In this document: positions 143 to 54,482 of the stretch, in pieces
Position numbering within the stretch: position 1 is the first letter of the stretch
Layout of the letters: each line of letters opens with the position of its first letter
Origin: Fidelibacterota bacterium
GTDB taxonomy: Bacteria > Fidelibacterota > Marinisomatia > Marinisomatales > Marinisomataceae
Direction of reading: 5' to 3'
Length of the DNA: 64,000 nt
Assembly: GCA_045560235.1 (NCBI GenBank)
Contig: JBJKZP010000002.1
Location: 18,332 to 82,331, forward strand
The notes under the pieces: generated by a model
Told to the model about the DNA's origin: nothing
Seen by the model: the letters and a program-made list of their open reading frames with translations, nothing else
The model's database searches: none
Made by a program: the position numbers and the translations under genes

Positions 143-1275
143 ATTTATATTTTTTAATTGCAAAAAGATTTTTATTTCCTAAAAAGAAATTTACTTCAAG
201 TATTATAAATTTTATTTCATTTTTAGGTTTATTTATTGGAGCTACTTCAATTGTACTTTCCATATCTGTTTTAAATGGTTTTCAAGATATTCTAAAGTCT
301 GAATATACTAAGCTCTATGGCCAATTTTTAATTGAGGATTATGATGATCAAGCAGATAAATCGATTAAAAATTATTTAGATTTAAATAATAGTAGCTATT
401 CCATTAATAGTGTTGATGAATTATTAATTATAGCTCAAAATAAACAAAGTCTTATTGAGCTCAAGTCTGTTACAAATCAATCTATAATTGATTTTTATGA
501 TTTGAATCTAAAAGAAAATCATGAAATTTTATCTGGTAACGAAATTATAATCGGGAATTCCCTTGCTTCACGTCTTAATTTAGATATTGGTGATAAGGTT
601 CAAATTATATCTAAAGATTTTAAGTTTAATTCTTTTGGTATTCCTGAAATAAAAGAAGTTGTTGTAGTTAATGTATTTACTAATAGAATTTTAAAAGCAG
701 ATGATTCCTTAATCTTTGGTATAATTAATGAGTCTAAAAACAAAAATTTATCTTTTGAATTTAATAATTCCGAAGTGTTAACATCAAATTTATCGTCTAA
801 AATATTGTCATGGAAAGATCGAAATCAACAGCTTTTTGAAGCAACTGAAATAGAAAAGAAGATTACATTTTTTACTTTATCATTAATCATATTAGTAGCA
901 TCATTTAATTTAAGTTCATCAATAATGCAAATTACTTCAAAGAAACTTAAAGATCTGGCCGTATTAATGTCTCTTGGAATGAACAAGTCTGGAATTAAAA
1001 TAATCTTTATTATTTATAGTTACTTAATAGGGGCTGGAGCAATTTTGCTTGGAATATCTTTTGCAGTTTTAATTATTTTTATACAAAATACTCACTCATT
1101 GATTAATCTAAATCCAGAATTTTATTTGGTAGATACTTTACCTATGAACATATTTATTGGCGATATTCTTTTTCTTTTGGCAGGTTCTTTAGTATTAGTT
1201 GGTATTTTTTCATTAATTCCATTAAGATTTGTTAAAAATATGAGTCCAAATCAAATTATTAATAGGCAAATATGA
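139..1275 (+). CDS. Lipoprotein-release / MacB-type ABC permease (LolC/LolE-like, FtsX family)
   Basis: 378 aa. N-terminal FLIAKRFLFPKKK motif followed by a TM helix, a large periplasmic loop, and three C-terminal TM helices. Overlaps the downstream ABC ATPase gene. Confidence 0.8.
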   Translation: MNLYFLIAKRFLFPKKKFTSSIINFISFLGLFIGATSIVLSISVLNGFQDILKSEYTKLYGQFLIEDYDDQADKSIKNYLDLNNSSYSINSVDELLIIAQNKQSLIELKSVTNQSIIDFYDLNLKENHEILSGNEIIIGNSLASRLNLDIGDKVQIISKDFKFNSFGIPEIKEVVVVNVFTNRILKADDSLIFGIINESKNKNLSFEFNNSEVLTSNLSSKILSWKDRNQQLFEATEIEKKITFFTLSLIILVASFNLSSSIMQITSKKLKDLAVLMSLGMNKSGIKIIFIIYSYLIGAGAILLGISFAVLIIFIQNTHSLINLNPEFYLVDTLPMNIFIGDILFLLAGSLVLVGIFSLIPLRFVKNMSPNQIINRQI

Positions 1276-1931
1276 TTATTAGAGTTAAAAACTTAAGTAA
1301 GAATTTTCGAGATGGTAAAAAAACTTTACATGTATTAAAAAATATAAACTTTGATGTCAAAGAAGGAGAAATTGTAACCATAAAAGGCCCTTCAGGATCA
1401 GGAAAATCTACACTCTTAAGTATTTTAGGAACTTTGGATAGCGCTGACAGCGGAGAAATATCTATAAACAACAAATCTTTAAGTGAAGTTAAAGATTTGA
1501 ATAGACTACGTAATTCAAATATAGGATTTGTTTTTCAATTTCATAACCTTATTCCAGAATTATCTCTTGAAGAGAATGTTTGTATGCCAAAAATGATTAG
1601 TAAGGGGAAAATTGATAATCATAAAATTGAAGAACTTTTTAAATTTTTTCAGCTTCAAGATAGAATGAAATCTTTTCCAAATGATCTTTCCGGCGGTGAA
1701 AAGCAAAGAGTAGCAGTAATGAGAGCGATAATAAATAATCCTTCAATAATCATTGCCGATGAACCAACAGGAAATTTAGATAAAGAAAATGCTATTAAAA
1801 TGATATCGCTTTTTAAGGAGTTAAATACTAAAAATAAATTAACTTTTATTATCGCAACCCACGATGAACAAATATTTCACATTGGTCATAGTAAATATAA
1901 TCTTGAGAGTGGAGATTTAAAAAAAATATAA
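1272..1931 (+). CDS. lolD: ABC transporter ATP-binding protein, LolD-like
   Basis: Walker A GPSGSGKST, ABC signature LSGGEKQR, and Walker B IIIADEPTGNLD. 4-nt overlap with the upstream permease. Confidence 0.88.
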   Translation: MIIRVKNLSKNFRDGKKTLHVLKNINFDVKEGEIVTIKGPSGSGKSTLLSILGTLDSADSGEISINNKSLSEVKDLNRLRNSNIGFVFQFHNLIPELSLEENVCMPKMISKGKIDNHKIEELFKFFQLQDRMKSFPNDLSGGEKQRVAVMRAIINNPSIIIADEPTGNLDKENAIKMISLFKELNTKNKLTFIIATHDEQIFHIGHSKYNLESGDLKKI

Positions 1932-5184: not shown

Positions 5185-6163
5185 ACTAGATAGATTGAAC
5201 GCTAAGATTCAACAAAAATCATCATTCGTGGATGAACTTAGAAATGAAATTTCTAATGTTATAGTAGGTCAGAATGACTTAATTGATAAGATTTTAATTT
5301 CAGTTATTTCTAATGGTCATATCCTTTTAGAAGGCGTCCCTGGTTTAGCAAAGACTTTAACTATCAATACTGTTGCAAGTTTAATTAATGCTGAATTCAA
5401 AAGAATACAATTTACTCCAGATATGCTTCCAGCAGATTTATTAGGAACATTGATATACAACCAAAAAACTGGAGAATTTAATACAAAAAAAGGTCCGATA
5501 TTTTCTAATATAATCTTAGCTGATGAAATAAATAGAGCTCCATCTAAAGTTCAAAGCGCTTTACTTGAATCAATGCAAGAAAGACAGGTTACGATAGGCG
5601 ATGAAACCTTTAAGCTTTCAACTCCATTTTTAGTTTTAGCTACTCAAAATCCTATTGAGCAAGAAGGTACATATCCACTTCCAGAGGCTCAAGTTGATAG
5701 GTTCATGATGAAAGTTTTGGTTGATTATCCATCTATTAGCGAAGAAAAAGAGATATTGAAAAGAGCAAGTACAGTCTCTAGTAATAAAATAAAATCTATT
5801 GTTAAATCTAAATCAATACTAGACGCACAAAATTTAGTTAACGAAATATATCTTGATTCAAAAATTGCTGATTATATTTTAAATATAGTTTTTGCAACTA
5901 GAGAGCCAGAAAATTTTAATCTATCCAAATTATGTGATCTAATTACATTTGGAGCATCTCCTCGTGCTTCGATTAATTTAGTTCTTGCTTCAAAAGCTAA
6001 AGCATTTATTGATGGAAGAGGTTATGTTATTCCTGAGGATATTAAATATGTAGCAAAAGATATATTAAGACATAGAATCTTATTGTCTTACGAAGCAGAA
6101 GCAGAGGAAATATCTTCAGAGGATATTATTGAGCAGCTTCTTCAAGAAATTCCAGTTCCTTGA
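5171..6163 (+). CDS. MoxR-family AAA+ ATPase
   Basis: Walker A GVPGLAKT, Walker B ILADEINRA, and SALLESMQERQVT, which is typical of MoxR/RavA. 330 aa. Confidence 0.9.
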   Translation: MKKNELDRLNAKIQQKSSFVDELRNEISNVIVGQNDLIDKILISVISNGHILLEGVPGLAKTLTINTVASLINAEFKRIQFTPDMLPADLLGTLIYNQKTGEFNTKKGPIFSNIILADEINRAPSKVQSALLESMQERQVTIGDETFKLSTPFLVLATQNPIEQEGTYPLPEAQVDRFMMKVLVDYPSISEEKEILKRASTVSSNKIKSIVKSKSILDAQNLVNEIYLDSKIADYILNIVFATREPENFNLSKLCDLITFGASPRASINLVLASKAKAFIDGRGYVIPEDIKYVAKDILRHRILLSYEAEAEEISSEDIIEQLLQEIPVP

Positions 6164-6170
6164 GGCTGAG

Positions 6171-7049
6171 ATGTCTAAAGAAATTTTAAAAAAAGTTCGT
6201 CAAATTGAAATCAGAACAAAAAATATAGTAAATGATTTTTTTGGAGGCGATTACCATTCAAATTTTAAGGGAAGAGGAATGACATTTTCAGAGGTAAGAG
6301 AATACGTACCGGGAGATGACATTAGATCAATAGACTGGAATGTTACCGCTAAAACAGGAAAGCCGCATATAAAAATATTTGAAGAAGAAAGAGAGCTTTC
6401 TGTTTTAATACTAATTGATGTAAGTAGCTCTGGAATATTTGGATCAAAAAAAGATTTTAAAATTGATGTTGCTGTAGAAATTGCTGCAATGCTAAGCTTT
6501 TCGGCAATTAAGAATAATGATAAGGTGGGTTTAGTTTTATTCAGCGATATAATTGAAAAATATATTCCCCCTAAAAAGGGTAAAAAGCATGTATTGAGGC
6601 TAATTACTGATATTATTAATCATGATTTTGATATAAACAAAAAGAAAACTTCAATTAAAAACGCTATTGATTTTGCTAATAAAATTTCAAAAAGAAAGAG
6701 CGTAATATTTTTGATATCTGATTTTATTGACAATGATTTTTTTAATGAATTAAAGTTTTTGAACTTTAAACATGATTTGATTGGTTTACAAATTTATGAT
6801 TCTTTTGAAAGAGATTTCCCTAATATTGGTTTAGTCAATATACATGATTCAGAAACAGGTAAAAAGGCCTGGATAGATACATCAAGCAAAAAAAATAGAG
6901 AAAATTTTTTAAAAGATTCAAATTCAAAGCTCGATTTATTTTCTAAAAAATGTAAAAATATCGGATTTGATTTATTGCAAATAAGCACTGATGATGATTA
7001 TGTAAAGTTTTTAATGCAATTTTTTAGAAAAAGAGCTAAGAGAAGTTAA
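6171..7049 (+). CDS. DUF58-family protein (MoxR partner, vWA-like fold)
   Basis: GDDIRSIDWNVTAKTGKPHIKIFEEEREL is the hallmark DUF58 motif. An ATG at 6171 lies just after the MoxR stop. The ORF-track start at 6129 would overlap MoxR. Confidence 0.85.
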   Translation: MSKEILKKVRQIEIRTKNIVNDFFGGDYHSNFKGRGMTFSEVREYVPGDDIRSIDWNVTAKTGKPHIKIFEEERELSVLILIDVSSSGIFGSKKDFKIDVAVEIAAMLSFSAIKNNDKVGLVLFSDIIEKYIPPKKGKKHVLRLITDIINHDFDINKKKTSIKNAIDFANKISKRKSVIFLISDFIDNDFFNELKFLNFKHDLIGLQIYDSFERDFPNIGLVNIHDSETGKKAWIDTSSKKNRENFLKDSNSKLDLFSKKCKNIGFDLLQISTDDDYVKFLMQFFRKRAKRS

Positions 7050-7909
7050 TGAAAAAATATTTTATCATTTTTTGTTTATTATTTTCATGTGATAATAAAA
7101 TAAAAAATCCTGAAATTATTTATAAAACAATACCTGCAATATCACAAATAGGTTCTCCTGTTAATCATAGTATTGAGATAAATAATTTGGGCAAACTATT
7201 TACACTAAACAGTGTAACATGGGAAGACTCATCAAATTGGCTTAAAGATTCGACTAAGGTGATAATAAAAGAATCAAATATCGATACTCTAGAAAATGCT
7301 ATTTTGTTTAATTATGAAATTACATTTTGGGATACTGGAAAGGTGATTATTCCATCTCATTATGCAAGTATTAGCTTTCCAGATTCTCTGTCTCCATCAA
7401 TTTTTAGAACTGAATCAAATGAAGTATTTATTTCTTCTGTATTTGACAGTACAATGACAACAACTATAGTAGATAAGCCATTGAAGGAAATAGAATTTCC
7501 AATAGAAAAATTGAAATTATTTGCATTGCTTCTTCTTTTAATTTCAATTATATATTTTACAAGCTTATTAAAAACAAGAAGTAGTCAAAAGTCAAATAAA
7601 AGAAAATTTTTTAATTTTAATCCTAAATTAAAAGCACTGAACGATGTTAAAGAAATCAATTTAGATTTACCTTCTTTGGAATTTTATAGTGAAGTATCGG
7701 AAATATTGAGAAAATATTTCCAAAATAATTATTATATAATTTCTTTTGAAATGACCTCATCAGAATTGAAGAAATATTTTCAAGATAAAGAATTAAATAT
7801 ACTTTTAGATCAAATTGATCAAGTAAAATTTGGTAGAAAAGACTCTTCTTATTCAGAAAAAAAAGATATTTTAGTTTTATTAAAAAAAGTTATAAGAAAA
7901 CTATTATAA
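7049..7909 (+). CDS. Hypothetical lipoprotein with a central TM helix (possible BatD-like / Bat-operon accessory protein)
   Basis: Lipobox LLFSC near the N-terminus and an internal TM helix LFALLLLLISIIYFTSLL. TAATG overlap with the DUF58 gene. Family assignment is uncertain. Confidence 0.5.
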   Translation: MKKYFIIFCLLFSCDNKIKNPEIIYKTIPAISQIGSPVNHSIEINNLGKLFTLNSVTWEDSSNWLKDSTKVIIKESNIDTLENAILFNYEITFWDTGKVIIPSHYASISFPDSLSPSIFRTESNEVFISSVFDSTMTTTIVDKPLKEIEFPIEKLKLFALLLLLISIIYFTSLLKTRSSQKSNKRKFFNFNPKLKALNDVKEINLDLPSLEFYSEVSEILRKYFQNNYYIISFEMTSSELKKYFQDKELNILLDQIDQVKFGRKDSSYSEKKDILVLLKKVIRKLL

Positions 7910-7936: not shown

Positions 7937-8500
7937 ATGAGTACAACAGCAGATATTAGAAACGGTGCCGTAATTCTATTCAAGAACTCAAGAATGAAGA
8001 TTGTAGAATTTCAACATGTCAAGCCTGGTAAAGGCCCTGCGTTTGTCAGAACGAAATTAAAAGATATTAAATCTGGAAAAATTATTGATCATACTTATAA
8101 TTCAGGAGCAAAAATTGAATTTATTCGGGTCACTTCAAGCAAGTTTCAATATTTATACAGAGATGGTGATAGTTTTGTGTTTATGGATAACAATACCTTC
8201 AATCAAGTGAATGTTTCAGAATCAATGATGGATAATGGACATTTTTATATTAAAGAGGGGGATACCATAGAGATATCTTTTGATGGAGAAGAAATAATAA
8301 GTTTAATTTTTCCCTCAAAAACTATTCTTAAGGTTGTTCAAACAGATCCGGGTCACAAGGGAAATACTGCAACAAATGCATTAAAACCTGCAAAGCTAGA
8401 AACTGGTTTAGAAGTTCAGGTTCCATTGTTTATTAATGAGGGTGATTTAGTTAAAATTGACACTAAAGATGGTAGTTATTCAGAAAGAATAAAACATTAG
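7937..8500 (+). CDS. efp: Translation elongation factor P
   Basis: 187 aa. Contains the [15 protein letters not shown] loop with the conserved modifiable Lys. Typical EF-P length and domain pattern. Confidence 0.95.
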
Positions 8501-8501
8501 T

Positions 8502-8981
8502 ATGTGGAAAGATAAAATAAAAGAAATCATTTACATGTTAGAGAATAGCGATGTTAATGAAATTGAAGTTAGGTCTTGGTTTAATAAGATTAAAGTGACA
8601 AAAAAGCCATCTATTCTTAATGTGGATTCTGCTCAGGCTTCTTCTCAAAATATTTCAGCAAGTAATGAAAATGTAATTTCAAGTGATAACAATGCAAATA
8701 AAGAAGAACAAAAAATTAAAACCCCAACTACTTCTGACTTGGTTGAAGTTAAATCGCCAATGCCTGGAACTTTTTATTCTTCTTCAGATCCTGATTCTCT
8801 ACCTTTTGTATCTGTTGGAGATGCGGTTAAGCCGGGTGATACTATATGTATTGTAGAAGCAATGAAAATTATGAACGAAATTCAGGCTGAAGATTCAGGA
8901 GTTGTTGAAGAAATTTTCATTCAAAATGCTTGTCCGGTTGAATTTGATCAAGTGCTTTTCAAATTAAAAATATCCAATTAA
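8502..8981 (+). CDS. accB: Acetyl-CoA carboxylase biotin carboxyl carrier protein
   Basis: C-terminal biotinyl domain with the EAMKIMNEI motif. Lies immediately upstream of accC. Confidence 0.9.
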
Positions 8982-45509: not shown

Positions 45510-46795
45510 TGACAAAAAAACAAACTTATAGTTGGGCGTTATATGATTGGGCAAATTCTGCTTTTGCTACAACGGTAATGGCTGGTTTTTTCCCTATTTT
45601 CTTTTCTCAATATTGGTCTAATCCTGACAATTTATCTATAAGCACCTTTTACCTTGGTCTAGGCAATTCTATTGCATCATTAATTGTTGCATTGATGGCA
45701 CCCATTTTAGGAGCCATAGCAGATAGAGGAAGTTTCAAGAAAAAGTTTCTTATTTTCTTTGCATTTTTAGGTATTGTAATGACTTTGAGTTTAGGGTTTG
45801 TTGCTCAAGGAATGTGGCAAGTTGCTTTATTGGTATATATTTTTTCAACCATAGGTTTTTCTGGTGCAAATATTTTTTATGATTCATTATTACCTGCAGT
45901 TTCAGATGAAAAAAGCGTTGATCAAGTATCTGCATTAGGTTTTTCATTGGGCTATCTTGGGGGAGGAATCCTCATCATTATTAATTTTTTGATGATTTCA
46001 TATCCTTCAGCTTTTGGGTTAATTGATGCAGTTCAAGCAACAAAATACTCTTTTATTTCAGTCGCTGTTTGGTGGACTATATTTTCTCTACCATTAATCT
46101 TTTTTGTTGAAGAGCCAAAACATCATAGTCAAGAAGGTATTCGTGATTCAATTAAGAATGGTTTAGTTCAATTCAAAAGTACTTTTAATGATTTAAAAAA
46201 ATTAAAAGTTGTTGCCACCTTTCTTCTGGCATATTGGCTTTATATTGACGGCGTTGATACAGTTGTTAGAATGGCAGCAAATTTTGCTTTTACTTTAGGT
46301 TTTGATCAATCTGCTATTATGGGAGCATTAGTATTTATTCAATTGATAGCATTTGTTGCTACTCTTGCTTACATAAAGCTGTCAAAATTTATTGGGTTAA
46401 AAAACGGCATATACTTAGGAATTTTAGGATATTTAGTGATTATTTTTGCAGGTTATTTTACAGAGACTATTACGCATTTTTATATTGTTGCTTTCTTGAT
46501 TGGTTGTTTTCAGGGCGGAATACAATCTTTGAGTAGAAGTTTATATTCAAGAATTATTCCTGAAAAAAAAGCTGCTGAATTCTATGGTTTTTACAATATG
46601 CTAGGAAAATTTGCAGCAGTTTTTGGACCTATTCTAATGGGGACTGTTACTTTACTCTTGAGTAATGTTGTAGAAAATGAAATCTTAGCAGCTCGCTTTG
46701 GTTTAATGTCAATTATGATCTTATTTCTTTTGGGAGGTTATATTTTTTCAAAGGTAGATATAGCTGAAGGCGAAGCAATTGCCAAAAACCTTTAA
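45509..46795 (+). CDS. MFS transporter, UMF1/Atg22-like family
   Basis: N-terminal SWALYDWANSAFATTVMAGFFPIFF is characteristic of the family. About 12 TM helices. Confidence 0.8.
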   Translation: MTKKQTYSWALYDWANSAFATTVMAGFFPIFFSQYWSNPDNLSISTFYLGLGNSIASLIVALMAPILGAIADRGSFKKKFLIFFAFLGIVMTLSLGFVAQGMWQVALLVYIFSTIGFSGANIFYDSLLPAVSDEKSVDQVSALGFSLGYLGGGILIIINFLMISYPSAFGLIDAVQATKYSFISVAVWWTIFSLPLIFFVEEPKHHSQEGIRDSIKNGLVQFKSTFNDLKKLKVVATFLLAYWLYIDGVDTVVRMAANFAFTLGFDQSAIMGALVFIQLIAFVATLAYIKLSKFIGLKNGIYLGILGYLVIIFAGYFTETITHFYIVAFLIGCFQGGIQSLSRSLYSRIIPEKKAAEFYGFYNMLGKFAAVFGPILMGTVTLLLSNVVENEILAARFGLMSIMILFLLGGYIFSKVDIAEGEAIAKNL

Positions 46796-46874
46796 TTTCA
46801 ATAGAAGAAGAACAATTTTAAAATTTTTTGAAATAAAGCGCTCACAAAGTTGCAATTTTTTATAAATTATCGAC

Positions 46875-47267
46875 GTGAATAACATTTCAGAATATTCAGA
46901 GTTAGTTCAACCTACGCACATTAATACTGCTGGAACACTTTTTGGCGGGTATATGCTAGCATGGCTCGATCTAGCAGCAGCGAAAGCAGCATCAGAGTTT
47001 TTAGAACAGACTGATGCATGGGGAGCGGTTACTCGCGCATTGGATAAGGTTGAATTTAAAGAGCCAGTTTATCTTGGAGATTGGGTGAAATGTAAATCAC
47101 AAATAATTCAAGCTGGAAATACTTCTGTCAAAGTCCAAGTTCAGGCTTTTGCACAAAGCAAAGATCACGGTAAAAGACTCGCTTGCACTGCTGACATTAC
47201 TTTTGTTGCAGTAATCAAAAATGAAGCAGGAGATTTAATCAGCTTTAAACACAATCTAAGCTTATAA
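46875..47267 (+). CDS. Acyl-CoA thioester hydrolase (YciA-like hot-dog)
   Basis: PTHINTAGTLFGGYMLAWLDLAAAKAA motif. 130 aa. GTG start. Confidence 0.75.
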   Translation: MNNISEYSELVQPTHINTAGTLFGGYMLAWLDLAAAKAASEFLEQTDAWGAVTRALDKVEFKEPVYLGDWVKCKSQIIQAGNTSVKVQVQAFAQSKDHGKRLACTADITFVAVIKNEAGDLISFKHNLSL

Positions 47268-47279
47268 AGGAAATTAAAA

Positions 47280-48719
47280 ATGGCACATATTAAAGAATTA
47301 AAATTTTTAAAAAATCATAAAGAATTGGTTGACGAAAACTATAGTATGGTTGCAGTACCTACATTTTCCGATACAATGGATAAAGATTTAGCTCAACTAT
47401 TTAAATCGCAAAATAAAACCGGAAAAGTCGGTGAATTAGTGTTTGAAATAGATAATGATTCAAGAGTAGTTTATTATGGCCTTGGTAATTCTTCAGAAAA
47501 AACTCCTGAAAATTTTCGTAGAGCAGCTGGTGAAATTGTAGGATATGCCTTAAAACATAAATACAATGATATTGCTGTAGAGTGTCCTGTTTCAGATGAA
47601 GGCGAGTATTATTGTCAAGCTTTTTCAGAGGGTCTAATTTTATCAAGCTATAGGTTTTTAGACTATTTTACAGATCAAAGAGGAGATTATCATTTAAATA
47701 GCATTACTATGGTTGGAGCTTGCAATGAAGAAGCAGCAAAAAAAGGAGTAATTATTGGTAGCGCTGTTTGCGATTCTAGAGATTTAGGAAATCATCCAGG
47801 CAATGTTACTACGCCAACCAGATTAGCAGAGTTTGCTACAGAGGTTGGAAAGAAAGGTAATATGAAAGTTACTATTTTTGATAGAGAAGAATTTACAGAG
47901 ATGGGAATGGGATCTTTTGCTGGCGTTGCGCAAGGCACTAATGAGCCTCCAAAATTTATTATCATGGAATATTCTGGCGGTAAAAAAAATGAAAAACCAA
48001 TTATGCTTGTTGGTAAAGGTTTAACTTTTGACACTGGAGGCGTTTCTCTAAAACCAGGATTAAACATGGATCAAATGAAATTTGATATGTGTGGATCAGC
48101 TGTAGTTTTCGGAGTTATGAATGCAATTGCTGAATTAAAACCAAACATGAATGTTGTTGCAATAGTTCCGTCAACCCATAACATGCTAGGCGGTTCTGCA
48201 TATAGGCCAGGAGATATTCTTACAGCATACAATGGAAAAACAATTGAAGTATTAAACACTGATGCAGAAGGAAGATTGATTCTTGCTGATGCGCTTGCAT
48301 ATGCAAGCAAGCACTACGATCCAGAGTATATGCTTGATTTTGCAACCCTTACAGGTGCAGTTGTAATTACGCTTGGTCACATAGCAACAGGATTAATGAG
48401 TAATAATGAATCGTTGGTTGAAAATATTAAAGTTTCATCAGATAACACCGGTGAGCATGTGTGGCAGTTACCACTTTGGGAGGAATATTGTGACCAAGTA
48501 AAATCTGAGGTTGCTGATGTCAAAAATTTAGGATCTCCAGGTCAAGCTGGAACTATAGCTGGAGCTGCTTTTTTGAAAGCTTTTGTTGGCAAAGATATTC
48601 CATGGGCCCACTTTGACGTAGCTGGAACCTCATATCATGTTGAAAATAGAAGCTACATTCAAAAGAATAGTGCTTCAGGTCAAGTGATTAGGCTGGTCCT
48701 TGATTTGATTGGTGCTTAA
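47280..48719 (+). CDS. pepA: Leucyl aminopeptidase (M17)
   Basis: VGKGLTFDTGGVSLKP, NTDAEGRLILADAL and LTGA motifs. Confidence 0.95.
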   Translation: MAHIKELKFLKNHKELVDENYSMVAVPTFSDTMDKDLAQLFKSQNKTGKVGELVFEIDNDSRVVYYGLGNSSEKTPENFRRAAGEIVGYALKHKYNDIAVECPVSDEGEYYCQAFSEGLILSSYRFLDYFTDQRGDYHLNSITMVGACNEEAAKKGVIIGSAVCDSRDLGNHPGNVTTPTRLAEFATEVGKKGNMKVTIFDREEFTEMGMGSFAGVAQGTNEPPKFIIMEYSGGKKNEKPIMLVGKGLTFDTGGVSLKPGLNMDQMKFDMCGSAVVFGVMNAIAELKPNMNVVAIVPSTHNMLGGSAYRPGDILTAYNGKTIEVLNTDAEGRLILADALAYASKHYDPEYMLDFATLTGAVVITLGHIATGLMSNNESLVENIKVSSDNTGEHVWQLPLWEEYCDQVKSEVADVKNLGSPGQAGTIAGAAFLKAFVGKDIPWAHFDVAGTSYHVENRSYIQKNSASGQVIRLVLDLIGA

Positions 48720-49436
48720 ATGAATAAATTATTTAAGAATGATATTTCTTTAGATCAAAAGAATCATAAATATATTCTTGAAAGTAGTCCTGATTTCAAA
48801 TTTTCTAGCGTTACAGAGTTTATACACCATTTTTTTGAAAAATTTGATCAAGAAAAAGTTGCAAGAAAATTAATTAATACTCATCCAAAATATAGCGGTA
48901 AAACAGTAGTTGAGGTAATTAAAGAATGGGGTAAGGGTGCGGAGAGGGGTACAATTGTTCATAATGAATTAGAGATGTTCATTAAAGAAAATATTACTCC
49001 AAAACATCCAATGTCTGTTACTGGAGTTCAGTGGGTTAAAGAAAAACAAAAGAATCCACATAACACCTTTTATTCTGAGGTTGTAGTATATTCAAAAGAG
49101 CTAGGAATCGCAGGAACAATTGATGTCCTAGTTTATAATAGCGAGCAAGATATGTATCATTTAGTAGACTGGAAAACTAATAAGCGTATTGATAAAAAAT
49201 CATTCAGAAAAAAAAGAGGTCTTCTAAGCTCATCCAAACATTTAGAGGATTGTAATTTTATACATTATTCTCTACAGCTTACATTTTATAGATATATATT
49301 AGAACGTTTTTATGGACTTGAAATAGGAAGTCAAACATTATTCCATCTTAAAGAAAATAATCAATATGAGATTTATAATGTTGATTATAAAAGTGAAGAT
49401 TTAATTAATATGCTTAGAGAGAAAGAATTAATTTAG
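48720..49436 (+). CDS. PD-(D/E)XK nuclease (phage RecB/Cas4-like exonuclease type, no Cys cluster)
   Basis: Ordered motifs GTIVHNELE, AGTIDVLV, HLVDWKTNK (D-x-K) and YSLQLTFYRY (QxxxY). The ATG directly abuts the pepA stop. Confidence 0.75.
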   Translation: MNKLFKNDISLDQKNHKYILESSPDFKFSSVTEFIHHFFEKFDQEKVARKLINTHPKYSGKTVVEVIKEWGKGAERGTIVHNELEMFIKENITPKHPMSVTGVQWVKEKQKNPHNTFYSEVVVYSKELGIAGTIDVLVYNSEQDMYHLVDWKTNKRIDKKSFRKKRGLLSSSKHLEDCNFIHYSLQLTFYRYILERFYGLEIGSQTLFHLKENNQYEIYNVDYKSEDLINMLREKELI

Positions 49437-49452
49437 AAATATTATAATATTC

Positions 49453-49944
49453 TTATTTTATACTAACTCTTTTTTCTTGAATTAGTTCACAGCCCGGAAC
49501 ATCTTCACCATTTTTTAATGCTTCTTTTATTTTACCTTTATCAATTGATTGCAATTCTTTGGTTTCAATATAGCTTGATGGAATGTTTTGTTCATTAGTA
49601 ATAACAACTTTATGAGGATTATTTTGAAGAGAAATAGTTATTTCAGAACTTTCTACTTTTTTTGTATTTGTTTTTTCTAGATTATATCTTAAATATTCTT
49701 TTAGATGTTTAACTTTAGACTCTATTGAGGTTCTTCGTTTATATTGTCTTGATTCTGCTTCTTTAATTCCGGCAGCTGTGTGTTCTAAATTTTTAATAAA
49801 TTTAGCAACGTTAGTAGTTTTCAATTTGAATTCACCTTCAAGCGATTCTAACGTATCTTTAACAGACTGATCATCAAGATCAGTTAAGTTTTCAAGAGCT
49901 TCTTGAAATTCATCCGCAAGTTCATAAAGACTAGGTAAAGACAT
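49453..49944 (-). CDS. Siphovirus Gp157-like protein (Sipho_Gp157 family)
   Basis: 163 aa. Acidic coiled-coil N-terminus (LYELADEFQEALENLTDLDDQSVKDTLESLEGEF). C-terminal IDKGKIKEALKNGEDVPGCELIQEKRVSIK matches the family's conserved tail, as I recall it. Confidence 0.65.
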   Translation of the reverse strand: MSLPSLYELADEFQEALENLTDLDDQSVKDTLESLEGEFKLKTTNVAKFIKNLEHTAAGIKEAESRQYKRRTSIESKVKHLKEYLRYNLEKTNTKKVESSEITISLQNNPHKVVITNEQNIPSSYIETKELQSIDKGKIKEALKNGEDVPGCELIQEKRVSIK

Positions 49945-49953
49945 AGATTAATA

Positions 49954-49989
49954 TAAAAAAAATACCCTGAAAAAATCAGGGTATTTTTG
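49954..49989 (-). terminator. Rho-independent terminator of the pnt operon
   Basis: ATACCCTGA-aaaaa-TCAGGGTAT. On the minus strand it is followed by a long T tract. It lies 55 nt downstream of the pntB stop. Confidence 0.75.
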
Positions 49990-50042
49990 AAATGGATTTA
50001 AAAAAAGATTATTGATTGATTTTGCTATTAAGAAAGATAATA

Positions 50043-51437
50043 CTAATCTAATTCTTTTATCTCTTTAAGAAGATCGTTAAGCATGTCTTTTGCATCGCCA
50101 AAAACCATAATAGAATTATCATATCCAAATAATTCATTTTGAACTCCAGCAAATCCTGGGTTCATACTTCTTTTGTTGATAATAACGGTTCTAGATTTAT
50201 CAACGTTCAGGATAGGCATTCCATAGATTGGACTTGATTGATCATGCCTTGCGGCAGGATTGACAACGTCATTAGCTCCTAAAATTAGCGCAACATCACA
50301 ATCTTCAAATTCAGGATTAATTTCATCTAAATCTTTTAGTACATCATAAGAGACATTTGCTTCAGCTAGTAATACATTCATATGTCCAGGCATTCTTCCA
50401 GCAACAGGGTGAATAGCATACAATATTTTTTTACCCATTGCCTCTAAAGATTCTGCTACTTCTCTAGCAACATGCTGAGCTTGTGCAACAGCTAAACCAT
50501 AGCCTGGAACAATAATAATTTTTTCAGCAGCATCAAGAATCATTGCGGCTTCAGTAGTTGAATAGCTTTTAATATTGACTTCTTTGCCGCCTTCACTACT
50601 TCCGGAGGTTTCCGCTGCTCCAACCGCTCCAAATATAACATTTGCTAAAGAACGATTCATGCCTTTACACATTATATTTGTAAGAATAAGACCAGAAGCT
50701 CCAACAAGCGATCCACTGATAATAAGTGCATTATTACTGATTAGAAATCCAGTAGCGGCAGCAGCAATACCAGAGTAAGAATTAAGTAATGAAATCACCA
50801 CAGGCATGTCTGCTCCTCCAATAGGTATAGTAAGACCTATTCCAAGAAGTAGGGCAAGCACTATAACAATATAAAATGCATTTAAATATCCACTGTAAAT
50901 AGATGATTCAAAAAATAATCCTGGAGCAAGAATTATAGATACAGATAATAAGGCAATTATTGCATTTATAGCTTGTTGACCTTTAAAAGTGATTGCTCTT
51001 CCGGAAATAAATCCTTGAAGTTTACCAAATGCAACAAAGCTTCCTGTAAAGGTTAGCGATCCAATAAAAACGCTTAAACAAACAATAATGAAAGGACTGT
51101 TTGGTGAGGATAGAAACTCTGAGGATGCTACAAAAGCTGATGCTGCTCCTCCTAATCCATTAAAAATAGCAACCATTTGAGGCATCTCGGTCATTTGAAC
51201 TCTCGTTGCAAAAATTAAACCAATTACAGCTCCAATAACTACACCAGTAAGTATTAGAGAAAAGTCAAATTCTTTTCCTGGGTAAGTTAGGGTTGCAATA
51301 ACTGCAATTAACATTCCAAGAGAAGATAAAAGATTCCCGCTTCTTGCAGTCTTGGGATGAGATAGCCTCTTAATCCCTAATATAAAAGCAATAGCTGATA
51401 CTAAATAAAGTATGTTTGTTATTTGAATAGCTTCCAT
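50043..51437 (-). CDS. pntB: NAD(P) transhydrogenase subunit beta
   Basis: 464 aa. N-terminal polytopic membrane domain plus a C-terminal NADP(H)-binding domain (VPGYGLAVAQAQ, GANDVVNPAA). Confidence 0.95.
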   Translation of the reverse strand: MEAIQITNILYLVSAIAFILGIKRLSHPKTARSGNLLSSLGMLIAVIATLTYPGKEFDFSLILTGVVIGAVIGLIFATRVQMTEMPQMVAIFNGLGGAASAFVASSEFLSSPNSPFIIVCLSVFIGSLTFTGSFVAFGKLQGFISGRAITFKGQQAINAIIALLSVSIILAPGLFFESSIYSGYLNAFYIVIVLALLLGIGLTIPIGGADMPVVISLLNSYSGIAAAATGFLISNNALIISGSLVGASGLILTNIMCKGMNRSLANVIFGAVGAAETSGSSEGGKEVNIKSYSTTEAAMILDAAEKIIIVPGYGLAVAQAQHVAREVAESLEAMGKKILYAIHPVAGRMPGHMNVLLAEANVSYDVLKDLDEINPEFEDCDVALILGANDVVNPAARHDQSSPIYGMPILNVDKSRTVIINKRSMNPGFAGVQNELFGYDNSIMVFGDAKDMLNDLLKEIKELD

Positions 51438-53876: not shown

Positions 53877-54482
53877 CTATATTAGGCTTGATACAATTGC
53901 CAATAATGACCCAAGTAAAAATGTTGTATTACTTGCTATATCCGATCCAGCTATTAAAAAACCAATAAGTACTAAAAGTTTATTATTAAATTTTAGTTTA
54001 GTTTTCTGACTGTCAGATATTTCCAATTCATCGATATCATCATTTTTAATAGAAAGCGTAGTATTTACAGCTGAATCTTTAGATATTTTATTTTTAGAAA
54101 TAATTTGATTGTTCCTAAGGAGAAATTGAATACTTTTTCTTTTTGGCATATCTATTTCAAAAGATTCAATATTTTCATTAAGCTGAAGTGCTATCTGCGT
54201 TGATTCTTCAGTATTTGAAATTTCTACACTTTTTAATGAATCATTTTTATAATTAGAAATTGCAAGACTATCTGACTTTGCATCATAAATGGTTATATAA
54301 AACCATTCAGAAGAATACCATGCAGTTACATTATTAAGATTTAATTTTTTATTTGAATCGAGTAAAATGACTGTTCCGTTATTTTTAGATTCTACATGCA
54401 ATTTTTTTATAGTCTGATTTTGAGACAAAACCGGAGTACAAAAAAACAAAAATAAAACAGTTAGTATTAGATTATTTTTCAC
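53877..54482 (-). CDS. Hypothetical exported protein with a C-terminal hydrophobic anchor
   Basis: Signal peptide MKNNLILTVLFLFFCTPVLSQ and a C-terminal TM-like LLVLIGFLIAG...LLAIVSSLI. No recognisable family. Confidence 0.45.
   Translation of the reverse strand: MKNNLILTVLFLFFCTPVLSQNQTIKKLHVESKNNGTVILLDSNKKLNLNNVTAWYSSEWFYITIYDAKSDSLAISNYKNDSLKSVEISNTEESTQIALQLNENIESFEIDMPKRKSIQFLLRNNQIISKNKISKDSAVNTTLSIKNDDIDELEISDSQKTKLKFNNKLLVLIGFLIAGSDIASNTTFLLGSLLAIVSSLI

What the first reader, a model, noticed from the sequence alone, without database searches (positions are those of the whole stretch)
48720..49944. Orphan phage-type cassette (PD-(D/E)XK nuclease and Sipho_Gp157-like protein) embedded between pepA and the pnt operon
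Two convergent genes with phage affinities sit in an otherwise purely housekeeping stretch.

The first is a 238-aa nuclease with the full H...D...DxK...QxxxY motif series of phage RecB/Cas4-like exonucleases, but no Fe-S cysteines. The second is a 163-aa protein whose acidic coiled-coil N-terminus and K-G-x-x-V-P-G-x-E-L tail match the Siphovirus Gp157 family. That family is associated in the literature with phage-resistance phenotypes, and is usually found at the head of siphovirus recombination/replication modules.

There is no integrase, tRNA, att-like repeat or other phage gene nearby. The nuclease ATG abuts the pepA stop with 0 nt between them. The two stops are 16 bp apart, around a 14-bp AT palindrome (49438-49451).

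This looks like a domesticated two-gene module rather than a decaying prophage. Candidate roles are a minimal anti-phage or superinfection-exclusion system, or a recombination or repair helper. I know of no described system with this pairing.
Basis: partly seen in the sequence, partly recalled or inferred. Interest (0 to 1): 0.6.

Follow-up and report, generated by a model that had tools for sequence, protein, structure and literature searches.

The report
Two resident phage-type DNA genes, adjacent secondarily
A small exonuclease and a phage 'Gp157' (Mu Gam-like) protein really do sit between pepA and pntB in this marine SAR406/Marinimicrobia genome, but they are two separately inherited, long-kept host genes that became neighbours only because the genes between them were deleted, not a new two-gene anti-phage system.

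Summary
ORF 48720-49436(+) is a PD-(D/E)XK nuclease with an MGME1/RecB/Cas4-like fold, an intact catalytic motif series and a single Cys. ORF 49453-49944(-) is a full-length Sipho_Gp157 protein (PF05565, E 1.6e-47).

The "cassette" reading fails. More than 35 Marinimicrobia species carry both genes at this site, under purifying selection (dN/dS 0.02-0.12) and with no phage genes nearby. Their arrangement is pntB-[oxidoreductase]-gp157-PEMT-> <-rmuC-nuc-[74 aa]-pepA.

The two genes end two convergent transcription units. The nuclease's recurrent partner is RmuC; Gp157's is a PEMT-family membrane methyltransferase. Only the window lineage lacks PEMT, and the 16-nt spacer is its relic.

The window's gp157 is also a replaced allele. 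It is 53-58% identical to the copy in sister species (flanks 95-98%), but 82-89% identical to a distant clade.

Outside this lineage the families hardly co-occur (1 of 80 viral nuclease loci; 0 of 12 other Gp157 loci). PADLOC finds no defence system. The family's "phage resistance" label traces to a noncoding origin element.

Most likely these are two independent DNA-end metabolism genes. Moderate-to-low interest.

The parts
48720..49436 (+). PD-(D/E)XK exonuclease-type gene (238 aa) of the RecB/MGME1/Cas4-like fold, without an Fe-S cluster. Its start codon abuts the pepA stop codon.
   Evidence: Pfam PDDEXK_1 lies above its cut-off, and PHROG 298 'exonuclease' scores E 1e-22. The AlphaFold2 model has pLDDT 94. 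Its best PDB matches are MGME1, the AdnA/AddA nuclease domains, Cas4, Dna2 and RecE. H81, D135, D150, K152, Q186 and Y190 are invariant, and there is a single Cys. dN/dS is 0.02-0.10.
49453..49944 (-). Sipho_Gp157 family gene (163 aa), a relative of phage Mu Gam. Here it is a horizontally replaced allele.
   Evidence: PF05565 scores E 1.6e-47 over the full length, and PHROG 253 scores E 1e-45. The model has pLDDT 87 and matches viral 'Siphovirus Gp157/Resistance protein' models at TM about 0.8. dN/dS is 0.05-0.12. Identity is 53-58% to sister species but 82-89% to a distant clade.
49437..49452 (.). 16-nt spacer between the convergent stop codons. It contains the 14-bp AT palindrome and is the relic of the 3' end of a deleted PEMT-family gene.
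   Evidence: The spacer aligns with the last codons of PEMT in L015 and L044, where PEMT overlaps the end of the nuclease gene. Palindromes of this kind are common in the window: 17 seen against 9.6 expected.
49447..50002 (-). Imported DNA segment: the gp157 gene plus its upstream hairpin, of the allele type found in the L026-L036 clade.
   Evidence: DNA identity to L015 is 91-92% in both flanks but 69% across this segment. Identity to L026 and L029 is 71-78% in the flanks but 82% across this segment.
49958..49988 (-). Intrinsic-terminator-like hairpin followed by a T run. It lies downstream of pntB and 13 nt upstream of the gp157 ATG.
   Evidence: It is the only terminator-like site in 48600-50200. 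Folding gives -17 kcal/mol, z = -5.5. The same hairpin stands upstream of gp157 in L026 and L034, with a compensatory C-G to T-A change in L026 and a G-U wobble in L034.
49945..49955 (-). TATATTAATCT immediately 5' of the gp157 ATG. TATATT is a -10-like box kept in all allele types examined, and L015 and L057 read TATATTAA as the window does. It may mark gp157's own promoter with a very short or absent leader (inference).
   Evidence: Sequence comparison of the region upstream of gp157 in the window, L015, L057, L029, L036, L026 and L034.
47280..48719 (+). pepA (leucyl aminopeptidase, M17), the upstream gene of the nuclease's transcription unit (context).
   Evidence: Pfam Peptidase_M17_N and Peptidase_M17 on the identical product in L001.
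50043..51437 (-). pntB (transhydrogenase beta subunit), the gene upstream of gp157 on the same strand. The terminator hairpin separates the two (context).
   Evidence: Pfam PNTB on the identical product in L001.

Best explanation
These are two separate, long-resident host genes of phage-related ancestry. They became neighbours in this lineage through genome reduction. They are not a co-evolved system.

(1) The nuclease is a metal-dependent PD-(D/E)XK exonuclease of the RecB/MGME1 type, with catalytic D135, D150 and K152 and the Q186xxxY190 motif. It most likely trims DNA ends or flaps during recombination or repair. It is the last gene of the pepA unit, and the TAA|ATG junction is consistent with translational coupling. 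In other clades rmuC (a DNA recombination protein) follows it and overlaps its stop codon. That makes RmuC the only recurrent DNA-metabolism partner seen for the nuclease.

(2) Gp157 is a homologue of phage Mu Gam. Its long helix (residues 25-91) most likely dimerises, and its C-terminal domain carries the conserved NGxxVPGCEL. It probably binds double-stranded DNA ends or otherwise modulates end processing, as it presumably does next to RecT- and Sak4-type annealing proteins in phages. Here it stands behind a terminator, probably with its own promoter. Everywhere else it is followed by a PEMT-family membrane methyltransferase gene that starts within about 40 nt of its stop or overlaps it. In some loci the gap is only 4 nt or less.

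(3) In the window lineage one event, or two closely spaced ones, replaced gp157 with a distant Marinimicrobia allele and deleted PEMT. This left the two stop codons 16 nt apart.

Shown: the families, the fold of the nuclease, conservation and purifying selection, synteny, the allele replacement, the PEMT relic and the lack of independent co-occurrence. Inferred: DNA-end binding by Gp157, the nuclease's substrate, the promoter and leaderless start, and the cellular role in repair.
For: - Families and folds.
- Link to Mu Gam: family member P0072 passes the Pfam cut-offs of both PF05565 (124 bits) and PF07352 Phage_Mu_Gam (35.2 bits against 28.3) on overlapping residues. Four of 38 members hit PF07352. 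hhalign of the family against Mu Gam gives E 1.2e-3. PHROG 253 and RefSeq phage records name it 'Mu Gam-like end protection'. PMC8093625 places sipho_gp157 in the same slot as Mu gam, upstream of erf/sak4.
- Phage neighbours: a RecT-like gene overlaps the gp157 start in L148 and another lies about 700 bp downstream in L151. A gene with a weak Sak4-like match (E 9e-10) abuts gp157 in L063.
- Vertical conservation: 35 GTDB Marinimicrobia-type genome loci (L026-L060, L065) plus 9 metagenome loci (L011-L019) share pntB...gp157-PEMT...nuc...pepA. A locus chosen through the nuclease (L162) shows the same nuc-rmuC> <PEMT-gp157 order.
- rmuC: PF02646 at E 2.6e-49, overlapping the nuclease stop codon.
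- Purifying selection.
- Allele replacement and the PEMT relic.
- No independent co-occurrence.
- No defence-system hit.
Against: - gp157, rmuC and the nuclease are three DNA-metabolism genes held within about 3 kb across a whole clade. A functional connection among them cannot be excluded, because conserved synteny within one lineage counts as a single observation.
- The Gam link is by transitive homology only. The window protein itself does not hit PF07352.
- The Gp157 model found no solved Ku or Gam structure.
- hhalign probability against Mu Gam is only 19%.
- No biochemical study of the Gp157 protein itself turned up in the two literature searches.
- Allele turnover of gp157 (window) and rmuC (L033, L034) looks more like conflict-driven evolution than ordinary housekeeping.
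Confidence: 0.6

Rival explanations
1. The genes form a small, fast-turning-over anti-phage or superinfection-exclusion islet: Gp157 plus the nuclease, with RmuC in other clades. Gp157 would sense or bind incoming linear phage DNA ends, and the nuclease or RmuC would degrade it.
For: - The interval shows xenologous allele replacement. The window's gp157 is 53-58% identical to sister species but 82-89% identical to a distant clade.
- rmuC falls into at least four allele classes, 26-58% identical to each other. Two of the breaks lie between otherwise close genomes. L034 vs L036: nuclease 97%, gp157 93%, rmuC 29%. L033 vs L026: rmuC 57%.
- Gene content between pntB and pepA varies.
- An RmuC-like domain occurs in a PADLOC DRT model, RTasRmuC, E 1e-15.
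- The nuclease is Cas4/RecB-like.
Against: - PADLOC reports no system match for Gp157 or the nuclease.
- The pair is adjacent only in the window lineage, and rmuC is absent from the window.
- The two families do not co-occur elsewhere.
- Both genes are under ordinary purifying selection and are fixed in every species sampled, whereas defence genes are usually patchy.
- The other variable genes in the interval are metabolic: an oxidoreductase, an EF-G-like protein and a homocysteine methyltransferase.
- The family's resistance reputation rests on a noncoding ori element.
Confidence: 0.13
2. The two genes are a true functional pair for host DNA-end processing. The Gam-like protein would cap or hand over ends to the MGME1-like exonuclease. 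This would be a minimal end-resection system in a very small genome, and adjacency would not be needed for it to work.
For: - Both genes are kept wherever the locus is intact, while the oxidoreductase, rmuC, the 74-aa ORF and (in the window) PEMT are lost in one lineage or another.
- At least one clade member has a chromosome of only 0.97 Mb (L040). Retention there implies a useful role.
- Both proteins plausibly act on DNA ends.
Against: - The nuclease occurs alone in Bacteroidota chromosomes, in the viral contigs fetched and in Flavobacterium and crAss-like phages. Gp157 occurs without this nuclease in the other loci examined, and in deposited phages it is listed mainly from Firmicutes phages, a different host group.
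- The two genes lie in different, convergent transcription units.
- Retention of both may only reflect that each is useful on its own.
Confidence: 0.15
3. The pair is the last remnant of a prophage that once sat between pepA and pntB and is now decaying.
For: Both families are common in phages: PHROG 253 and 298, 466 and 52 deposited phage records, and at least 506 viral contigs for the nuclease.
Against: - No integrase, tRNA or structural gene was found, either in the window or in any of the more than 40 related loci.
- No att-like repeat was searched for.
- Both ORFs are intact in nearly all species, with dN/dS of 0.02-0.12.
- The genes interleaved with them are housekeeping genes.
- No viral contig carries a Gp157 more than 41% identical.
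Confidence: 0.03
4. In this clade Gp157 has been recruited to a role unrelated to DNA. That role would be tied to the membrane methyltransferase gene (PEMT/ICMT family) that follows it closely in every other species.
For: gp157-PEMT is the most constant gene pair in the interval. It is present in every other locus that covers the region, co-directional, with PEMT starting within about 40 nt of the gp157 stop or overlapping it, and only 0-4 nt away in some loci.
Against: - The window lineage lost PEMT but kept an intact gp157 and even renewed it.
- The window's only PEMT-like match is a weak one 9.5 kb away (31% identity over 81 residues).
- In phages the family's context is DNA recombination (PMC8093625).
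- Tight spacing is the norm in this densely packed genome.
Confidence: 0.07

Closest known systems
Sipho_Gp157 (PF05565; PHROG 253), e.g. ORF35 of Geobacillus virus E2 and orf157 of Streptococcus thermophilus phage Sfi21
   Same: There is a full-length profile match at E 1.6e-47. Identity to the Geobacillus and Parageobacillus phage proteins is 46%. The predicted fold matches viral Gp157 models at TM about 0.8. The conserved C-terminal NGxxVPGxEL is present.
   Different: In phages the gene sits in the early recombination/replication module. It lies beside or near RecT-, Sak4- or Erf-type annealing proteins, or, in temperate phages such as E2, a few kb from the integrase and repressor (PMC8093625). 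Here it is a single chromosomal gene between pntB and a host nuclease. No annealing protein lies nearby. It is fixed in a whole bacterial clade and is under purifying selection.
Phage Mu Gam (PF07352), the Ku-like double-strand-end binding protein that shields DNA from host exonucleases
   Same: The two families are homologous through intermediates. P0072 passes both Pfam cut-offs on overlapping residues. The proteins are similar in size, 163 against 174 aa. They occupy the same slot upstream of annealing-protein genes in Firmicutes phages.
   Different: The window protein does not itself hit PF07352. hhalign probability is only 19%. No solved Gam or Ku structure was recovered by fold search. 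End binding has not been tested for any Gp157.
MGME1, the RecB-family nuclease domains (AddA, AdnA, RecB) and Cas4
   Same: The nuclease shares the PD-(D/E)XK core with the D...D-x-K and QxxxY motifs. The best fold matches are MGME1 (E 1e-5, TM 0.56-0.59), AdnA/AddA, Cas4, Dna2 and RecE. Like MGME1 it has no Fe-S cluster (single Cys).
   Different: It is a stand-alone 238-aa protein with no helicase partner and no Cas1/Cas2 or CRISPR nearby. Sequence identity to the solved structures is only 12-15%. The NCBIfam cas4 score is 22 against a cut-off of 65. It has a conserved N-terminal H16-x-Y18 hairpin of unknown role.
PHROG 298 'exonuclease' of Flavobacterium phages, crAss-like phages and large marine phages, and the stand-alone 'PD-(D/E)XK nuclease family protein' of Bacteroidota
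   Same: It is the same protein family. Identity to Bacteroidota chromosomal copies and to marine phage-like contigs is 44-50%. Identity to cultured phage copies is 25-29%.
   Different: In Marinimicrobia the gene is fixed downstream of pepA and, in several clades, joined to rmuC. Neither linkage is seen in the Bacteroidota or phage loci.
RmuC (PF02646), a DNA recombination protein with a PD-(D/E)XK-type domain
   Same: In the relatives that keep it, rmuC is the gene joined to the nuclease by a 4-nt start/stop overlap (L026, L040, L162).
   Different: It is absent from the window, so it is not part of the feature at hand. Its alleles are extremely divergent between close relatives.

Membership tests
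Sipho_Gp157 (PF05565) | Full-length match to the family profile above the curated cut-off | tested here: met
   161.9 bits against a cut-off of 28.6, residues 6-163 on profile positions 2-162 of 162. PHROG 253 scores E 1e-45.
Sipho_Gp157 (PF05565) | Predicted fold shared with viral family members | tested here: met
   Foldseek against BFVD gives 'Resistance protein' and 'Siphovirus Gp157' models at E 1.6e-11 to 2e-6, TM 0.76-0.81.
Sipho_Gp157 (PF05565) | Typical context: a phage recombination module next to an annealing protein (RecT, Erf or Sak4) | tested here: not met
   The neighbours are pntB and the nuclease. The Pfam list for the called genes of L001, about 4.5 kb on the pnt side and 10 kb on the pepA side, holds no annealing protein. 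The context is met in phage and prophage loci L148, L151 and L063.
Phage Mu Gam (PF07352) | Match to the Gam profile | tested here: inconclusive
   The window protein gives no hit at E <= 1. Four of 38 family members hit the profile, and P0072 lies above the cut-off. hhalign of the family against Mu Gam gives E 1.2e-3, probability 19%.
Phage Mu Gam (PF07352) | Binds double-stranded DNA ends and protects them from exonucleases | not testable with these tools
   This needs EMSA and exonuclease-protection assays with purified protein.
PD-(D/E)XK nucleases of the RecB/MGME1/Cas4 type (PF12705) | Catalytic D...D-x-K plus the QxxxY motif, on the restriction-endonuclease-like fold | tested here: met
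   D135, D150, K152, Q186 and Y190 are invariant in 35 homologues. PF12705 scores 26.4 against 22. The model has pLDDT 94 and matches MGME1, AddA, Cas4, Dna2 and RecE with probability 1.0.
Cas4 | Four-cysteine Fe-S cluster and association with cas1/cas2 and a CRISPR array | tested here: not met
   The protein has a single Cys, C178. TIGR00372 scores 22 against a cut-off of 65. No cas genes appear among the neighbours. No CRISPR-array or tandem-repeat scan of the window was run.
Known anti-phage defence systems (PADLOC-DB 2.0) | Significant match of the components to models of one described system | tested here: not met
   The nuclease gives only weak Cas4/DruK-type nuclease similarity (best E 2e-6). 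Gp157's best hit is E 0.01.
Prophage or prophage remnant | Integrase, att repeats or a tRNA target, structural or lysis genes, or decaying ORFs | tested here: not met
   The window has no tRNA. No phage Pfam families occur in the window's flanks or in any related locus. Both ORFs are intact with dN/dS of 0.02-0.12. The interleaved genes are housekeeping genes. Att-like repeats were not searched for.
Conserved two-gene module (co-inherited functional pair) | Adjacency or co-occurrence that recurs in independent lineages | tested here: not met
   The genes are adjacent only in the window lineage. PEMT, with or without rmuC, lies between them in all other loci. One of 80 viral nuclease loci has a Gp157 within 10 kb. 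None of 12 other Gp157 loci has this nuclease. The nuclease stands alone in Bacteroidota.

The most novel reading that the evidence does not exclude
The short pntB-pepA interval of this SAR406 clade may be a miniature conflict locus. It holds a Gam-like end-binding protein, an MGME1-like exonuclease and RmuC, and their alleles are repeatedly swapped between distant lineages. Examples are gp157 in the window and rmuC in L033 and L034. Together these genes could form an undescribed system that recognises and destroys, or alternatively protects, linear DNA ends during phage infection of bacteria with extremely small genomes.
Probability: 0.13. Interest if true: 0.55.

Novelty: new member of a known kind. 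Interest (0 to 1): 0.3.

Why it matters
It corrects an attractive but wrong reading. Two phage-family genes lying side by side in a housekeeping stretch need not be a defence cassette. Here, comparison with relatives shows the adjacency to be a by-product of deletions.

Two things remain of modest interest. First, a Mu Gam-like phage protein has been fixed under purifying selection in a clade of abundant ocean bacteria, at least one of which has a chromosome of only about 1 Mb. That implies a host function for a protein family that has never been characterised biochemically. Second, that gene, and the neighbouring rmuC in relatives, have been replaced by distant alleles through recombination. 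This gives a clean natural example of xenologous replacement in a streamlined genome, and a handle for asking what Gp157 proteins do.

Tried and rejected
- Foldseek of the Gp157 model against the PDB gave only coiled-coil noise, best E 1.5.
- Sequence and profile searches of both proteins against PDB chains found nothing meaningful.
- The broad Gp157 alignment A1 was too diverse for a pattern scan of viral contigs. The clade alignment A3 worked but found only distant viral relatives, at most 41% identical. No phage donor for the window allele was found.
- PADLOC gave no defence-system assignment.
- Assembly chimera as the cause of the mosaic gp157 was rejected. The ten places fetched, from independent samples, show the same neighbouring genes wherever the contig reaches them, at 99-100% protein identity.
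- The 14-bp AT palindrome as a functional element (bidirectional terminator or att site) was rejected. Such palindromes are frequent in the window, it contains no G-C pairs, and it aligns with the PEMT 3' coding end in relatives.
- GC content as evidence of recent foreign origin was rejected as uninformative.
- Whether the source genomes lack RecBCD/AddAB or Ku/LigD could not be checked, because only about 8-10 kb around each hit is held.
Full report
**1. What is there**

- ORF 48720-49436 (+) encodes 238 aa. Its ATG follows the pepA TAA with no spacer.
- ORF 49453-49944 (-) encodes 163 aa and converges on the first ORF.
- 16 nt separate the two stops, and the spacer contains a perfect 14-bp AT palindrome.

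The surroundings fit the description. The 64-kb window has no tRNA. The called genes around the pair are housekeeping genes: rpoD-like sigma factor, der, an MFS transporter, a 4HBT thioesterase, pepA, pntAA/AB/B, proline iminopeptidase and alaS.

GC content at the pair (0.23-0.31) is at the low end of the local range but is not distinctive. The palindrome is not remarkable either. The window holds 17 perfect 14-bp palindromes, against 9.6 +/- 2.8 in simulations.

**2. Family assignments**

*Gp157.* The 163-aa protein is a full-length Sipho_Gp157 (PF05565): 161.9 bits against a cut-off of 28.6. It also matches PHROG 253 'Mu Gam-like end protection' at E 1e-45.
- Its AlphaFold2 model (pLDDT 87) has a 67-residue helix followed by a small mixed C-terminal domain.
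- The model matches predicted viral 'Siphovirus Gp157 / Resistance protein' structures at TM about 0.8.
- It matches no solved structure.

*Nuclease.* The 238-aa protein passes PF12705 PDDEXK_1 (26.4 against 22) and PHROG 298 'exonuclease' (E 1e-22).
- H81, E85, E120, D135, D150, K152, Q186 and Y190 are invariant or nearly so in 35 homologues. The protein has a single Cys.
- Its model (pLDDT 94, pTM 0.89) matches human MGME1 best. The nuclease domains of AdnA/AddA, then Cas4, Dna2, Exo5 and RecE follow.
- It is therefore a RecB/MGME1-type nuclease without an Fe-S cluster. It is not a Cas4: TIGR00372 scores 22 against a cut-off of 65.

**3. Whose genome, and how old the genes are**

The exact Gp157 protein is indexed on contigs in 24 blocks of the collection. 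The ten places fetched, from independent marine metagenomes, show the same neighbouring genes wherever the contig reaches them.

Homologues are named Marinimicrobia / Candidatus Neomarinimicrobiota / Fidelibacterota, i.e. SAR406. A scan of one genome per GTDB species found 35 Marinimicrobia-type loci with a Gp157 50-89% identical to the window's. In every one that reaches the flanks, the gene lies between the pnt operon and pepA. One of these genomes has a chromosome of 969,550 bp (L040).

Both genes are under purifying selection:

| Gene | dN/dS |
|---|---|
| gp157 | 0.05-0.12 |
| nuclease | 0.02-0.10 |
| pepA | 0.02-0.13 (one outlier pair, L036-L034, at 0.29) |
| pntB | 0.02-0.13 |

No related locus shows an integrase, structural gene or other phage gene at this site. 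The 'decaying prophage' reading is therefore out, and 'long-resident host genes' is in.

**4. The pair is not a module**

In all other loci the interval reads:

pntB - [zinc-type oxidoreductase] - gp157 - PEMT/ICMT-family membrane methyltransferase -> <- [rmuC] - nuclease - [74-aa membrane ORF] - pepA

Bracketed genes are present in some clades only.

- PEMT starts within about 40 nt of the gp157 stop or overlaps it, only 0-4 nt away in some loci. It is present in every locus that covers the region. The window lineage is the only exception.
- rmuC (PF02646, E 2.6e-49) begins 4 nt before the nuclease stop codon in L026, L040 and L162.
- L162 was retrieved through the nuclease rather than through Gp157, and it shows the same order. 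The conservation is therefore not just a selection artefact.

So the two genes terminate two convergent transcription units. The nuclease's recurrent partner is RmuC, and Gp157's is PEMT.

The window's 16-nt spacer, GAATATTATAATATTT on the gp157 strand, lines up with the last codons of PEMT in L015 and L044. There PEMT overlaps the nuclease stop codon. The spacer is thus a deletion scar. The zero-nt pepA|nuclease junction is also derived, because most relatives have the 74-aa ORF there.

**5. An unexpected mosaic**

By its flanks the window is a close sister of L015, L016 and L057. Protein identity of the window to the two groups compares as follows:

| Gene | Sister species (L015/L016/L057) | Distant clade (L026-L036) |
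|---|---|---|
| pepA | 97-98% | 69-71% (80% to L034) |
| pntB | 96-97% | about 80% |
| der | 97-98% | not compared |
| nuclease | 95% | 75-79% |
| gp157 | 53-55% | 82-89% |

At the DNA level the flanks are 90-92% identical to L015 and L057, but the 0.55-kb gp157 segment (49447-50002) is only 69% identical. Against L026 and L029 the flanks are 71-78% identical, while the gp157 segment and its upstream hairpin reach 82%.

Elsewhere Gp157 tracks the species tree. The window lineage has therefore replaced its gp157 with a distant Marinimicrobia allele. This happened together with, or close in time to, the PEMT deletion.

The donor is not sampled. dS to the nearest allele is about 1.2, and no viral contig carries anything closer than 41%.

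rmuC behaves in a similar way in relatives. L034 and L036 share 97% (nuclease) and 93% (gp157) identity but only 29% in RmuC, and at least four RmuC allele classes exist.

**6. Does the pairing recur elsewhere?**

It does not.
- The nuclease family is widespread as a lone gene in Bacteroidota chromosomes (L020-L022). It also occurs in large marine phage-like contigs (L023-L025, L155-L158), with no Gp157 nearby.
- Of 80 viral contigs carrying the nuclease, one (L129) has a Gp157 within 10 kb, 6.5 kb away on the other strand.
- Of 12 other Gp157 loci (8 viral, 4 bacterial or prophage), none has this nuclease.
- In deposited phage genomes the Gp157 family occurs in 466 records, mostly Streptococcus, Staphylococcus, Clostridium and Listeria phages. 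The nuclease occurs in 52 records: Flavobacterium phages, crAss-like phages and uncultured giant phages. The host groups listed do not overlap.

**7. What the Gp157 family does**

In phages it lies beside or near annealing-protein genes. A RecT-like gene overlaps the gp157 start in L148, and another lies about 700 bp downstream in L151. A gene with a weak Sak4-like match abuts gp157 in L063. It also sits at the head of the early module of Geobacillus virus E2.

A survey of Firmicutes phages places sipho_gp157 in the same slot as Mu gam, upstream of erf/sak4, and infers an analogous function (PMC8093625).

Homology to Mu Gam is supported through intermediates.
- P0072 passes both Pfam cut-offs on overlapping residues.
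- Four of 38 family members hit PF07352.
- hhalign against Mu Gam gives E 1.2e-3 at low probability.

That Mu Gam is a Ku-like protein binding double-strand ends is established knowledge, not tested here.

A later paper that cites this work describes the protective element as a 302-bp noncoding origin fragment (PER), which acts in a copy-number-dependent way, and not as the protein (PMC6356513). PMC6157547 repeats the label without a test. PADLOC gives no defence assignment for either protein.

**8. Expression signals**

A strong hairpin with a T run lies at 49988-49958 on the minus strand (-17 kcal/mol, z = -5.5). It sits between pntB and gp157, 13 nt before the ATG. It came in with the imported allele. 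L026 and L034 have the same hairpin, with a compensatory C-G to T-A change in L026 and a G-U wobble in L034.

All allele types examined keep TATATT 5-6 nt before the ATG, and L015 and L057 read TATATTAA as the window does. I infer that gp157 has its own promoter and a very short or absent leader. This is not shown.

The TAA|ATG junction suggests that the nuclease is translationally coupled to pepA.

**9. Verdict**

The best reading (confidence about 0.6) is as follows.
- There are two independent, selectively maintained DNA-end metabolism genes of phage-related ancestry.
- One is an MGME1/RecB-like exonuclease whose recurrent partner is RmuC.
- The other is a Mu Gam-like protein.
- Reductive deletions brought them side by side in one lineage.
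- The gp157 allele was replaced by recombination.

A defence islet (0.13) or a true end-processing pair (0.15) cannot be excluded. The repeated allele replacement of gp157 and rmuC is the main hint in that direction.

This is a new member of known kinds, not a new system. Interest is about 0.3.

Noticed in passing
L026:9129-10076, L033:1981-2919, L034:3857-4810, L037:2584-3480, L040:12028-13017 (all minus strand): In relatives, rmuC lies just downstream of the nuclease. It falls into at least four allele classes that are only 26-58% identical to each other. This holds even between sister genomes: L034 vs L036 share 97% (nuclease) and 93% (gp157) identity but only 29% in RmuC. The gene is lost altogether in many species, including the window. 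This is a second case of xenologous replacement in the same short interval.
   Followed up: partly
window 46795-46875, compared with L011:11694-14467 and L017:11914-14483: Several relatives carry isocitrate lyase and malate synthase (the glyoxylate shunt) between the 4HBT thioesterase and the MFS transporter. The window and L015 lack them. The shunt is therefore a variable trait in this clade.
   Followed up: no
L040 (OZ243041.1, Fidelibacterota MAG, chromosome 1): The record is a chromosome of only 969,550 bp, so at least one member of the clade has a very small genome. That makes retention of a phage-derived Gp157 more notable. In this genome and in L039, an EF-G-like GTPase and a homocysteine S-methyltransferase are inserted between PEMT and rmuC.
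   Followed up: partly
window 49945-49955 (minus strand), and the equivalent positions in L015, L057, L026, L029, L034 and L036: A TATATT box is conserved 5-6 nt upstream of the gp157 ATG in all allele types examined, even though the proteins are only about 55% identical. L015 and L057 read TATATTAA as the window does. This may be a -10 box for a leaderless or near-leaderless transcript.
   Followed up: partly
L017:9792-10016, L026:10794-11018, L044:9803-10024 (minus strand): A conserved 74-aa ORF with a hydrophobic core and a basic tail (RRITRRRVNKL), and no Pfam match, lies between pepA and the nuclease in most relatives. It is absent in the window, L011-L016, L050 and L057.
   Followed up: partly
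L034 (DASCOP010000004.1) 5759-7198: The pepA of L034 is 90% identical to that of L017, but only 79% identical to that of its sister L036. The sisters' nuclease, gp157 and PEMT are 93-97% identical. Either recombination has occurred at this site again, or the MAG contig is chimeric.
   Followed up: no
L129 (IMGVR_UViG_3300042375_000433) 1241-1747 (-) and 8314-8919 (+): This is the only viral contig of 80 that carries both a Gp157 homologue and this nuclease family. The two genes are 6.5 kb apart on opposite strands.
   Followed up: no
window 53877-54482 (-): A 201-aa ORF with an N-terminal hydrophobic segment and no Pfam hit is conserved between the proline iminopeptidase gene and alaS in all relatives (195-201 aa, '-' in the Pfam column).
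   Followed up: no
window, whole: Perfect 14-bp palindromes are about twice as frequent as expected from a Markov-1 model: 17 against 9.6 +/- 2.8. Their positions relative to gene ends were not examined.
   Followed up: no
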